Of a stretch of 15,889 nt of DNA, positions 4,269-4,385 are shown piece after piece. The notes beneath the pieces are model-generated. The model was not told where the DNA came from, did not search any database, and saw only the letters and a list, made by a program, of their open reading frames with translations. A program made the position numbers and the translations under genes. Numbering within the stretch: position 1 is the first letter of the stretch; every line of letters begins with the position of its first letter. The DNA is from Cyanobacteria bacterium UBA11371. GTDB taxonomy: Bacteria > Cyanobacteriota > Cyanobacteriia > Cyanobacteriales > Aerosakkonemataceae. The stretch covers positions 5,760 through 21,648 of the forward strand of contig DNGJ01000424.1 in assembly GCA_003486305.1 (NCBI GenBank). Direction: 5' to 3'.

Positions 4269-4385
4269 ATAGCGGATTGCTTTCCGCATGAGGTAGACCT
4301 TCGTTTGTGTAGCGGGTGCGTTAACGCACCCGCTACACAAACTTGCGCGATTTCGCTTTCCCTAGACGAGCTTGCAATCCGCTGT
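4269..4385. repeat. Nested inverted-repeat structure. A 38-bp perfect palindrome (4304-4341, TTTGTGTAGCGGGTGCGTTAACGCACCCGCTACACAAA) sits inside an outer 12-bp inverted repeat with one mismatch (ATAGCGGATTGC at 4269-4280 / GCAATCCGCTGT at 4374-4385).
   Basis: Read directly from the sequence. It lies in the divergent intergenic region between the NIL-ferredoxin gene (start 4219) and dam (start 4410), roughly 70-105 nt upstream of the dam ATG. Confidence 0.8.

What the first reader, a model, noticed from the sequence alone, without database searches (positions are those of the whole stretch)
4269..4385. 38-bp perfect palindrome nested in an outer inverted repeat upstream of dam
TTTGTGTAGCGGGTGCG-TTAA-CGCACCCGCTACACAAA is a perfect 38-bp palindrome. 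Sequence this long and perfect is very unlikely by chance. It is bracketed by a 12-bp inverted repeat about 90 bp apart (ATAGCGGATTGC ... GCAATCCGCTGT). The whole structure sits in the divergent promoter/5'-UTR region of the NIL-ferredoxin gene and dam. It could be an operator for a dimeric regulator, for example one controlling the R-M module. It could be a cruciform-forming MITE-like insertion marking the left edge of the acquired islet. It could be a transcriptional attenuator.
Basis: seen in the sequence. Interest (0 to 1): 0.5.

Follow-up and report, generated by a model that had tools for sequence, protein, structure and literature searches.

The report
One copy of a cyanobacterial MITE
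The long perfect palindrome upstream of dam is real. It is the core of one copy of a roughly 115-bp mobile repeat (a MITE) scattered through this cyanobacterium's genome, not a control site specific to dam.

Summary
Window 4303-4342 is a perfect 40-bp palindrome, bracketed by a 13-nt inverted repeat with one mismatch (4268-4280 / 4374-4386).

It is not unique to the dam locus. One arm plus the loop occurs at 13 further loci in a single Phormidiaceae MAG and once in Microseira wollei. Profile searches raise this to about 33 distinct insertion sites in the sequence held, including a second copy cut off by the window's own end (15838-15889).

All copies share one architecture:
- TA flanks and termini YAGCGGATTGC...GCAATCCGCTR.
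- A subterminal GAGGTACA/TGTACCTC repeat.
- A central palindrome and a small side hairpin.

Copies sit between genes and face 5' and 3' gene ends alike. One filled/empty pair of orthologous sites shows a TA target-site duplication. Other short repeat families share the same termini but have different interiors.

The best reading is a non-autonomous cut-and-paste element mobilised in trans, probably by an IS630/Tc1-mariner-type transposase. That transposase was not found. A relative with the same ferredoxin-dam arrangement lacks the element, so the operator and islet-edge readings are not supported.

One mildly unusual feature: the core varies by matched changes on both arms, and this is seen even between orthologous copies.

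Verdict: an ordinary kind of element, apparently an undescribed family.

The parts
4268..4386 (+). Whole repeat copy including both flanking TA dinucleotides. The element proper is 4270-4384, 115 bp. Family orientation is defined by the small side hairpin lying 3' of the core.
   Evidence: nhmmer with the family profile scores 118 bits, E = 2e-35. Alignment A1 holds 22 copies.
4268..4269 (.). Left TA, inferred to be one copy of the duplicated TA target.
   Evidence: TA flanks nearly all aligned copies (17 of 19 at the left end). The filled/empty pair L016 versus L052 shows a single TA in the empty site and TA on both sides of the element in the filled site. This is an inference for the window copy; no empty allele of this site was found.
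4270..4280 (+). Left terminal inverted repeat, TAGCGGATTGC.
   Evidence: Helix 1 is paired in 94.5% of cells across copies.
4289..4297 (+). Left subterminal box TGAGGTAGA (family consensus TGAGGTACA).
   Evidence: Alignment A1 columns 26-34. The same box occurs in sister families that share the termini.
4303..4342 (.). Central perfect 40-bp palindrome, centred on TTAA (GTTAAC).
   Evidence: Matched changes on both arms occur across copies.
4347..4356 (+). Small side hairpin GCG-ATTT-CGC. It is the only clearly asymmetric module and gives the element its orientation.
   Evidence: Alignment columns 90-92 pair with 98-100 in 100% of cells. The third pair (columns 92/98) switches C-G to G-C in 6 copies and G-U in 1 (7 of 22 changed on both sides).
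4357..4365 (+). Right subterminal box, degenerate variant TTTCCCTAG. The consensus TGTACCTCA would pair with the left box.
   Evidence: Alignment A1 columns 101-109. Two module variants circulate in the family.
4374..4384 (+). Right terminal inverted repeat, GCAATCCGCTG.
4385..4386 (.). Right TA, inferred to be the second copy of the duplicated target.
15838..15889 (-). Second copy of the same family in the opposite orientation. It starts one base after the stop codon of the CobN/Mg-chelatase ORF (11731-15837) and is cut off by the window end at the start of its core palindrome.
   Evidence: nhmmer E = 2.7e-7 on the truncated part. Sequence. The full copy is in L026 6089-6203, with core GTGTAGCGGCAGCCTTAAGGCTGCCGCTACAC.
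3815..4219 (-). Context only: NIL-domain 2x[4Fe-4S] ferredoxin gene. Its start codon lies 48 bp from the element.
   Evidence: Pfam NIL and Fer4. 100% match to proteins that sources name ferredoxin.
4410..5234 (+). Context only: D12-class N6-adenine DNA methyltransferase (Dam-like) gene. Its start codon lies 23 bp from the element.
   Evidence: Pfam MethyltransfD12, 4.5e-71. PADLOC MTase_II and orphan MTase models.

Best explanation
The palindrome is the centre of one copy of a roughly 115-bp non-autonomous DNA transposon (a MITE). The family is present in many copies in this filamentous cyanobacterium (Phormidiaceae MAGs, UBA11369 group), in a related MAG species, and at least once in Microseira wollei.

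**Structure.** The element is almost a palindrome as a whole. It has 11-nt terminal inverted repeats (YAGCGGATTGC / GCAATCCGCTR), a subterminal GAGGTACA/TGTACCTC repeat and a 36-50-bp central palindrome. One small hairpin on one side breaks the symmetry.

**Mobility.** It inserts at a TA dinucleotide and duplicates it. This was shown for one copy and is inferred for the window copy. It encodes nothing, so it must be moved in trans by a transposase that recognises the shared termini. An IS630/Tc1-mariner-type DDE enzyme is the most likely candidate; this is inferred, and the transposase was not found.

**This locus.** The element landed in the spacer between the ferredoxin and dam genes after the two genes were already neighbours.

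**The core.** Its near-perfect symmetry is a property of the element, not of dam regulation. It is probably kept symmetric by selection for hairpin or cruciform formation, together with exchange of sequence between copies (gene conversion). Matched changes on both arms are seen even between orthologous copies.

**Local consequence (inferred, untested).** The element fills 119 of 190 bp of a divergent promoter region. It must therefore either lie within the 5' leader of one transcript, as a very stable hairpin, or separate a promoter from its gene.
For: **Multi-copy.**
- The 19-mer of arm plus loop occurs at 13 loci of one MAG and in M. wollei NIES-4236.
- A profile built from these found 7 further copies in the same ~100 kb, plus a second copy at the window's end.
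- A metagenome scan keyed only on the termini found 12 more sites, one of them orthologous to a site already held.

**Shared architecture.** All copies have conserved termini flanked by TA.

**Mobility and target duplication.** L016 reads GCTTGTT-TA-[CAGCGG...CCGCTA]-TA-CTATGC. The orthologous L052, whose flanks are 94-96% identical, reads GCTTGTT-TA-CTATGC.

**Same termini, different interiors.** Other short repeats carry TA-CAGCGG(A/G)TTGC with unrelated interiors, and some of them also carry the TGAGGTAC box. This is what a shared transposase predicts.

**Position.**
- 17 of 22 copies lie in ORF-free DNA. The other 5 overlap only mechanically called ORFs.
- Copies face 5' and 3' gene ends alike, and orientation is mixed.

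**No coding capacity.** Four of the six reading frames of the window copy carry stop codons. The two open frames (one per strand) are only about 39 codons long.

**Not conserved with the locus.** The relative L024 keeps the ferredoxin-dam arrangement without the element.

**Hairpin maintained.**
- 87.8% of cells are paired, against at most 44% when partners are slid.
- 15 pairs have double changes, against 8.0 +/- 1.6 in shuffles.
- 23 of about 33 sites have a perfect palindrome of at least 32 bp, with 7 different inner cores.

**No strand bias.** G.T and A.C mismatches in stems are 25 each. This fits a DNA-level palindrome better than an RNA read from one strand.

**Literature.** Bacterial MITEs typically carry TIRs, 5'-TA-3' termini, target duplications and long stem-loops. 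RUP is attributed to IS630-Spn1 with a TA target (PMC2229807).
Against: - No autonomous element with these termini was found in roughly 350 kb of held loci. The transposase family is therefore an inference from the 2-bp TA duplication. Some IS5-group elements also make 2-3-bp TA-containing duplications (my own knowledge).
- The duplication rests on one filled/empty pair.
- No empty allele of the window's own site was found. All 7 MAG contigs of this species carry the element, and the metagenome scan for the empty junction found nothing.
- Classical MITE models do not by themselves explain why the core stays perfectly palindromic while its sequence changes.
- All genome data are from MAGs or metagenome contigs that often break at this repeat. 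The copy number (order of hundreds per genome) is an extrapolation.
Confidence: 0.85

Rival explanations
1. REPIN-like element. The hairpin-forming repeat would be spread as single-stranded DNA by a REP-associated tyrosine (HUH, IS200/IS605-like) transposase rather than by a DDE enzyme.
For: - The whole element is one long hairpin.
- Both arms of the core contain GTAG/CTAC. GTAG is the hallmark of REP sequences, and GTAG REPs and REPINs are reported in cyanobacteria including Nostoc punctiforme (PMC3733652; PMC3116915).
- Matched mutations on both arms are reminiscent of REPIN evolution.
- Di Nocera et al. describe Anabaena GTAG-15 dimers embedded in long palindromes that begin TATAGGA and end TCCTATA.
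Against: - A TA target duplication is seen at the filled/empty pair. IS200/IS605-type transposition makes none (my own knowledge).
- The best conserved parts are true terminal inverted repeats, and families with unrelated interiors share them.
- GTAG here is paired inside the stem, not an unpaired tag. It is absent from some cores, for example GCGCGAGCGG in L011.
- The core is a single hairpin, not a doublet of two REP hairpins.
Confidence: 0.06
2. Locus-specific operator. The palindrome would bind a dimeric regulator controlling dam, the putative R-M module or the ferredoxin gene.
For: The palindrome has perfect dyad symmetry and lies in a divergent promoter region.
Against: - The same sequence lies next to dozens of unrelated genes, at 3' ends as often as at 5' ends.
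- It is absent from the equivalent spacer of a relative that keeps both genes.
- The core sequence varies freely between copies.
- It contains no GATC.
- No Pfam HTH or controller-protein family was detected in the ten large ORFs scanned.
- At 40 bp, with 18-bp arms abutting a 4-bp centre, it is unlike known C-box operators (my own knowledge).
Confidence: 0.02
3. Host-serving structural repeat. The family would persist because the hairpin works genome-wide as a bidirectional terminator, an mRNA stabiliser or RNase III site, or a nucleoid-protein or gyrase site, as proposed for REP/BIME and Correia elements. At this locus it would insulate dam from antisense read-through. This is compatible with a transposon origin.
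For: - The element has a very stable fold on both strands.
- Pairing is maintained by matched changes.
- Copies are strictly intergenic, and some abut a stop codon within 1 nt (window copy 2 and L010b).
- In the window copy the hairpin is followed on the plus strand by TTTCTGTTTT.
- Such roles are documented for other MITEs (PMC2229807; PMC3733652).
Against: - There is no preference for 3' ends and no orientation bias that reaches significance (6 antisense versus 2 sense among copies within 25 nt of a 3' end).
- A T-run after the hairpin is not a family feature.
- The terminator scan flagged only a small 6-bp stem at 4260-4275 and not the element hairpin, which exceeds its pattern limits.
- No expression data are available.
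Confidence: 0.12
4. Family of small structured RNAs (sRNA genes) transcribed from their own promoters.
For: The fold has compensatory changes.
Against: - No Rfam family reaches threshold. The only weak hit is symR at 25 bits against a gathering score of 61, which is chance level.
- There is no strand bias in G.U versus A.C mismatches.
- The simple scan found no promoter in or beside the window copy.
- TA duplication and terminal repeats point to transposition.
Confidence: 0.03

Closest known systems
Bacterial TA-flanked MITEs: RUP of Streptococcus pneumoniae (107 bp, attributed to IS630-Spn1) and Correia/NEMIS of Neisseria (about 105-155 bp)
   Same: Size of 100-150 bp, non-coding, terminal inverted repeats, 5'-TA-3' at both ends with target duplication, mostly intergenic, many copies, and a long stable stem-loop (PMC2229807; here).
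   Different: There is no sequence relationship and the phylum differs. No partner IS has been identified here. This family has a near-perfect 36-50-bp central palindrome whose sequence changes symmetrically between copies. I did not see that described for RUP or Correia in the passages I read.
Nezha and other cyanobacterial MITEs (Anabaena/Nostoc Nezha with an ISNpu3-like partner; Microcystis MaeMITEs)
   Same: Cyanobacterial host, about 130-170 bp, TIRs plus direct repeats, highly stable predicted structures, and mobility inferred from filled/empty orthologous sites (PMC3184786).
   Different: I had no Nezha or MaeMITE sequences to compare, so relatedness is untested. No paper in the searchable library contains this family's terminus or core sequence in a relevant context. 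The hosts here are Oscillatoriales-type filamentous cyanobacteria (Phormidiaceae MAGs, Microseira), not Nostocales or Microcystis.
REPINs and GTAG-tagged REPs, including Anabaena GTAG-15 dimers nested in long TATAGGA...TCCTATA palindromes
   Same: Hairpin-forming intergenic repeats; GTAG within the arms; a palindromic unit nested inside a longer palindrome that begins TATAG and ends CTATA; matched variation on both arms (PMC3733652; PMC3116915).
   Different: Here a TA duplication and true TIRs are present. GTAG is base-paired and not universal. There is a single central hairpin rather than a doublet of REP hairpins. No RAYT association could be tested.
Small dispersed repeats (SDR) of Nostoc (Elhai et al. 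2008)
   Same: From my own recollection only: very short palindromic modules found inside MITE-like contexts in cyanobacteria, apparently exchanged or replaced in situ. This resembles the swappable core seen here.
   Different: The paper could not be read, so no feature was checked. The hosts differ, and the modules here are longer (26-42 bp).
Controller (C-protein) operators of restriction-modification systems
   Same: Dyad-symmetric DNA immediately upstream of an R-M-type gene.
   Different: C-boxes are single-copy and lie upstream of a C gene (my own knowledge). Here no Pfam HTH or controller-protein family was detected in the scanned ORFs, and the sequence is a dispersed repeat.

Membership tests
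[quoted passage not shown] | Small size (under about 300 bp) and no coding capacity | tested here: met
   The element proper is 115 bp. Four of the six frames carry stop codons, and the two open frames are only about 39 codons long.
[quoted passage not shown] | Terminal inverted repeats conserved across copies | tested here: met
   YAGCGGATTGC / GCAATCCGCTR. Helix 1 is paired in 94.5% of cells across 22 copies.
[quoted passage not shown] | Target-site duplication shown by a filled versus empty site | tested here: met
   L016 (filled) versus L052 (empty): a single TA becomes TA-element-TA, with flanks 94-96% identical. This is one pair only, and it is not the window's own copy (one search found no empty allele).
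[quoted passage not shown] | Multiple dispersed copies within a genome | tested here: met
   13 exact-arm loci plus 7 profile hits in one MAG; 2 copies in the 15.9-kb window; about 33 sites in all.
[quoted passage not shown] | A related autonomous IS with the same termini | tested here: inconclusive
   None was found in roughly 350 kb of held loci. Whole genomes could not be scanned again. Sister non-autonomous families share the termini.
IS630/Tc1-mariner-mobilised element | Insertion at TA with a 2-bp TA duplication | tested here: met
   TA flanks nearly all aligned copies. Flanking context is mostly [A/T]TA[A/T].
IS630/Tc1-mariner-mobilised element | Termini matching those of an IS630-family transposase gene in the same or a related genome | not testable with these tools
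REPIN / RAYT system | Two REP units in inverted orientation, each with the conserved GTAG head | tested here: not met
   The core is one continuous hairpin. GTAG is paired within it and absent from some variants.
REPIN / RAYT system | No target-site duplication (single-strand HUH mechanism) | tested here: not met
   A TA duplication was observed.
REPIN / RAYT system | A RAYT gene flanked by the repeats | not tested
   No RAYT search was possible across the host genome.
R-M controller operator (C-box) or locus-specific operator | Unique or near-unique site tied to the regulated promoter and conserved with it | tested here: not met
   The sequence is dispersed and absent from the orthologous spacer in L024.
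Intrinsic terminator or attenuator | GC-rich stem-loop followed by a U-run, placed consistently at 3' ends or in leaders in one orientation | tested here: not met
   Position and orientation relative to genes are mixed. The T-run is not conserved. The scan did not call it, though the element hairpin exceeds its pattern limits.
Known Rfam RNA family | Score at or above the family's gathering threshold | tested here: not met
   No hit at gathering score. The only sub-threshold hit is symR at 25.1 bits against 61.

The most novel reading that the evidence does not exclude
The central palindrome may be a separately evolving cassette inside a conserved transposon frame.

**What was seen.**
- At least 7 different inner cores, each a perfect palindrome, occupy the same frame. 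One of them is unrelated in sequence (L038: TGTTGCTGTAGAGACGTTACATGTAACGTCTCTACAGCAACA).
- Two orthologous copies at one insertion site differ by exactly complementary double substitutions on both arms (GGGTGCG/CGCACCC versus GGCAGCG/CGCTGCC).

**What it could mean.** An active symmetrising process may be at work. Candidates are hairpin-templated repair of extruded DNA, or a dedicated palindrome-replacing activity like that proposed for Nostoc small dispersed repeats. Either would go beyond ordinary gene conversion between copies plus selection. If so, the family would be a natural system for studying how bacteria create and maintain long perfect palindromes that should be unstable.
Probability: 0.15. 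Interest if true: 0.5.

Novelty: new member of a known kind. Interest (0 to 1): 0.22.

Why it matters
**For the scan.** This removes a candidate regulatory site. The palindrome says nothing specific about dam or the putative R-M module.

**For annotation.** The family is abundant enough to break short-read assemblies at the palindrome. Examples are the window's own end, the end of L028, the starts of L008 and L009, and the N-gap in L004. A model of the family would help in three ways:
- masking these repeats;
- joining contigs in Phormidiaceae and Microseira MAGs;
- avoiding spurious small ORFs, such as the mechanical ORFs 4097-4291 and 4333-4488 that run into the element.

**For biology.**
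- It adds a TA-targeting MITE superfamily in filamentous non-heterocystous cyanobacteria, with shared termini and several different interiors.
- It offers a clean example of matched, in-situ change of a long palindrome.
- An insertion 23 bp from the dam start codon and 48 bp from the ferredoxin start codon could well alter expression of both genes. This is testable.

Tried and rejected
- **Rfam.** No family reached gathering threshold over the whole window. At permissive threshold over 4150-4500 only symR appeared, at 25 bits against 61, and I rejected it as chance.
- **Plasmids.** blastn (distant mode) of the 146-bp region against PLSDB found no match.
- **Viral contigs.** The termini-with-gap pattern gave 4 hits, all unrelated chance matches on inspection. 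A degenerate core pattern gave none.
- **Empty allele of the window's own insertion.** All 7 same-species contigs are filled. The metagenome scan for the joined flanks found nothing. The closest relative's spacer is too diverged to align.
- **Paralogous empty sites.** Joined flanks searched against all held loci found none.
- **Autonomous partner.** Every exact TIR match falls inside a MITE copy. TIR matches with up to 2 mismatches outside known copies turned out to be sister MITEs or chance. No multi-copy segment of 250 bp or more exists among non-orthologous loci.
- **RNA versus DNA selection.** G.T versus A.C mismatch counts showed no bias, 25 versus 25.
- **Promoter and terminator scan of 3700-5800.** Nothing convincing in the spacer, so no TSS could be inferred.
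- **Literature.** Searching for the terminus and core strings returned only unrelated chance matches. Elhai et al. 2008 on SDRs could not be retrieved.
- **Orientation relative to the upstream gene.** Among copies close to 3' ends: 6 antisense versus 2 sense, not significant.
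Full report
**1. The observation**

Window 4303-4342 reads GTTTGTGTAGCGGGTGCGTTAACGCACCCGCTACACAAAC. The next longest perfect palindrome in the window is 14 bp. Across 200 shuffles the longest was 10-20 bp.

An outer inverted repeat brackets it: TATAGCGGATTGC at 4268-4280 and GCAATCCGCTGTA at 4374-4386. It is 13 nt with one mismatch.

The region folds far better than shuffled controls on both strands. The plus strand gives -66 kcal/mol (z = -7.4) and the minus strand -60 kcal/mol (z = -6.1).

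The element occupies 119 bp of a 190-bp spacer between two divergent genes:
- a NIL-domain 4Fe-4S ferredoxin gene (3815-4219, minus strand);
- a D12-class Dam-like methyltransferase gene (4410-5234, plus strand).

The window carries 21 HIP1 sites (GCGATCGC), which marks it as cyanobacterial. Identical proteins come from MAGs named Cyanobacteria bacterium UBA11369.

**2. It is a dispersed repeat**

- *Same species.* Seven public MAG or metagenome contigs carry the same locus with the same element. One has a run of N exactly at the palindrome. Two others begin inside the element.
- *Genome collection.* A scan of 185,579 species-representative genomes for one arm plus the loop (TGTGTAGCGGGTGCGTTAA) found 14 loci. 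Thirteen were on different contigs of one MAG (Phormidiaceae cyanobacterium CTOTU46633) and one was in Microseira wollei NIES-4236.
- *Profile search.* Aligning about 120 bp around each hit showed a common element. An nhmmer profile found 7 more copies in the same ~100 kb that carry other core sequences.
- *Second window copy.* The profile also found a copy at the very end of the window, 15838-15889. It starts one base after the stop codon of the CobN/Mg-chelatase ORF and is truncated at the start of its palindrome. The complete copy is in L026.
- *Metagenomes.* A scan keyed only on the termini (AGCGGATTGC-N75-105-GCAATCCGCTRTA) added 12 further sites from several samples. One of them is orthologous to a site already held.

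In all, about 33 distinct insertion sites are held. The 7 bystander copies per ~100 kb, and the 2 copies in this 15.9-kb window, suggest a few hundred copies per genome. That figure is an extrapolation.

**3. Anatomy**

The consensus from alignment A1 is:

TA-TAGCGGATTGC-AGCCGnA-TGAGGTACACC-nnn-GTTTGTGTAGCGGGTGCGTTAACGCACCCGCTACACAAAC-GAA-GCC-ATAA-GGC-TGTACCTCAC-nnn-GCAATCCGCTG-TA

The element is nearly a palindrome as a whole. Its modules are:
- terminal inverted repeats;
- a subterminal GAGGTACA/TGTACCTC repeat;
- the central palindrome;
- one small hairpin on one side, which gives the element an orientation.

I counted a hand-drawn four-helix structure on the 22 copies:
- 87.8% of cells are paired, against 27-44% when partners are slid by 1-3 columns.
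- 15 pairs show changes on both sides, against 8.0 +/- 1.6 in shuffles. None of 500 shuffles reached the observed value.

The T/C mismatch at the third position of the termini is present in 15 of 19 copies, so it is ancestral.

G.T and A.C mismatches in the stems are equally frequent, 25 each. There is therefore no sign that only one strand, such as an RNA, is under selection.

**4. Mobility and target**

Comparing the flanks of all copies against all held loci found one orthologous pair with a presence/absence difference:
- L016 (DALYJX MAG) reads ...GCTTGTT-TA-CAGCGGATTGC...GCAATCCGCTA-TA-CTATGC...
- L052 (ERZ1066127), with flanks 94-96% identical, reads ...GCTTGTT-TA-CTATGC...

The element proper is therefore YAGCGGATTGC...GCAATCCGCTR, and insertion duplicates a TA. 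TA flanks nearly all aligned copies (17 of 19 at the left end), usually in an [A/T]TA[A/T] context.

A second copy in the same two contigs is present in both, so the two genomes share older insertions.

Several other short repeats in the metagenome loci carry the same terminus TA-CAGCGG(A/G)TTGC with quite different interiors, and one of these families also carries the TGAGGTAC box:
- ATCAGC/AGCTGA repeats;
- a GGGAGCT heptamer array (this family also has the TGAGGTAC box);
- a long simple inverted repeat.

Conserved ends with interchangeable interiors and a 2-bp TA duplication are what a trans-acting cut-and-paste transposase predicts. TA duplication is the signature of IS630/Tc1-mariner elements and of the MITEs attributed to them, such as RUP (PMC2229807). 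No autonomous partner was found in the sequence I could reach, so the enzyme family remains an inference.

**5. Position relative to genes**

By a mechanical ORF analysis, 17 of 22 copies lie in ORF-free DNA. The other 5 overlap only dubious or start-extended ORFs. Copies sit upstream of genes, downstream of genes, between convergent genes and between divergent genes. Orientation is mixed. Among copies within 25 nt of a 3' end, 6 are antisense and 2 sense, which is not significant. Beyond avoiding coding sequence, there is no positional preference that would suggest a designed regulatory role.

**6. The dam locus specifically**

A relative whose NIL-ferredoxin is 95% identical (Logan contig L024) has the same divergent ferredoxin-dam arrangement, with Dam 75% identical. 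Its spacer is 105 bp and unrelated in sequence, and it gives no match to the family profile. The two genes were therefore neighbours before the element arrived, and the element is not a conserved part of their control region.

Further points:
- No second copy lies on the far side of the low-GC dam/PDDEXK_11 block. The element does not delimit an islet.
- It contains no GATC.
- No Pfam HTH or controller-protein family was detected in the ten large ORFs scanned.

What remains plausible, but untested, is a side-effect. Only 48 bp lie between the element and the ferredoxin start codon, and only 23 bp between the element and the dam start codon. At least one promoter must therefore lie inside or beyond the element, which would put a -60 to -66 kcal/mol hairpin into a leader or between a promoter and its gene. 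The simple promoter scan found nothing usable in the spacer.

**7. The variable but symmetric core**

Of about 33 sites, 23 have a perfect palindrome of 32-50 bp at the centre. Its sequence is not constant. Seven different inner cores occur, each perfectly symmetric:
- GGGTGCGTTAACGCACCC
- GGCACCCTTAAGGGTGCC
- GGCACCGTTAACGGTGCC
- GGCAGCATTAATGCTGCC
- GGCAGCCTTAAGGCTGCC
- GGCAGCGTTAACGCTGCC
- AGACGTTACATGTAACGTCT, which is unrelated in sequence

There are also symmetric outer-arm variants (GTATAGCGG, GCGCGAGCGG, GTGTGCAGG, GTGTAGAGG). Chimeric copies exist whose two arms come from different variants (L012, L013, L015, L016b, L017a).

Most telling is the orthologous pair L016b/L052, at the same insertion site. 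The two copies differ by GGGTGCG...CGCACCC versus GGCAGCG...CGCTGCC. That is two substitutions on one arm and the two complementary ones on the other. They also differ by a swap of the right subterminal module. Both variants exist elsewhere in the family.

The simplest explanation is short-tract gene conversion between dispersed copies. The paired variable positions are only about 12 nt apart across the loop, so one tract covers both. How new symmetric cores arise in the first place is not explained. Selection on a hairpin or cruciform, or repair templated by the opposite arm, are both possible.

**8. Comparison with known systems**

*What it works like.* It behaves like the TA-flanked bacterial MITEs: RUP, Correia/NEMIS, and the cyanobacterial Nezha and Microcystis MITEs (PMC2229807; PMC3184786).

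*Membership in the MITE class.* All features I could test were met: size, lack of coding capacity, terminal repeats, target duplication and multiple copies. The partner IS is missing.

*Membership in REPIN/RAYT.* Two tested features failed: a target duplication is present, and the core is not a doublet of GTAG-headed REPs. The nested-palindrome architecture does recall the Anabaena GTAG-15 dimers inside TATAGGA...TCCTATA palindromes (PMC3733652).

*Prior description.* No paper in the searchable library contains the family's terminus or core sequence in a relevant context. The family appears to be undescribed, but it is of a well-known kind.

**9. Verdict**

This is an ordinary mobile repeat, a new member of a known kind. 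Its modest curiosity is the symmetric evolution of its core.

I put confidence at about 0.85 that it is a trans-mobilised TA-duplicating MITE, and about 0.55 that the transposase is of the IS630 family.

Noticed in passing
window 15838-15889 (full copy in L026 6089-6203): The window ends inside a second, oppositely oriented copy of the same repeat, one base after the stop codon of the CobN/Mg-chelatase ORF. Its core is a different perfect palindrome (GTGTAGCGGCAGCCTTAAGGCTGCCGCTACAC).
   Followed up: yes
L004 2188-2404 (N-run); end of L028; starts of L008 and L009; window end: Public short-read assemblies break or carry gaps exactly at this palindrome. The repeat fragments MAGs of this lineage, and counts from MAGs underestimate its copy number.
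   Followed up: partly
L016 6517-6640 versus L052 4452-4574: Orthologous copies at one insertion site differ by exactly complementary substitutions on both arms of the core and by a swapped right subterminal module. Copies therefore exchange sequence in situ.
   Followed up: partly
L033 407-532; L034 1213-1332 (same site as L039); L036 2999-3104; L054 1563-1684; L042 1-103; L051 386-~520; L053 3776-~3920: Sister non-coding repeats share the terminus TA-CAGCGG(A/G)TTGC, and one family (L051 and L053) also shares the TGAGGTAC box. Their interiors are unrelated: ATCAGC/AGCTGA repeats, a GGGAGCT heptamer array, or a long simple inverted repeat. This looks like a superfamily served by one transposase.
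   Followed up: partly
window 19-1050 (full 872-aa gene in L001 4023-6641): A major-vault-protein homologue (Vault repeats plus MVP shoulder domain, 1.5e-55) is encoded in this cyanobacterium.
   Followed up: no
window 4410-5695: The dam gene and the convergent, overlapping PDDEXK_11 nuclease-fold gene have GC of 0.36-0.39 against 0.46 for the window. This fits a horizontally acquired methylase-nuclease pair. In the relative L024, dam is kept next to the ferredoxin gene, but the downstream partner is a Uma2-family gene instead.
   Followed up: partly
L026 6204-6633 (intergenic region downstream of the second copy); also L015 about 5600-5700: Other short repeats occur here (GGGCGGGTTT...GGTAAAACCC-type and ATATCATGTCC motifs). 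The genome carries further repeat families.
   Followed up: no
window 6853-8013 (+) and 5839-7008 (-): A 386-aa ORF has no Pfam or PADLOC match. Its first ~150 nt overlap the mechanically extended start of the metallophosphoesterase ORF. Public gene calls give 298-299 aa for the latter.
   Followed up: no
L016 2273-2602 and L052 10675-10968: The polymorphic insertion that revealed the TA duplication lies among short overlapping ORFs (66-107 aa). Their reading frames are lengthened by the element in the filled allele. Whether a real small gene is disrupted is unresolved.
   Followed up: no
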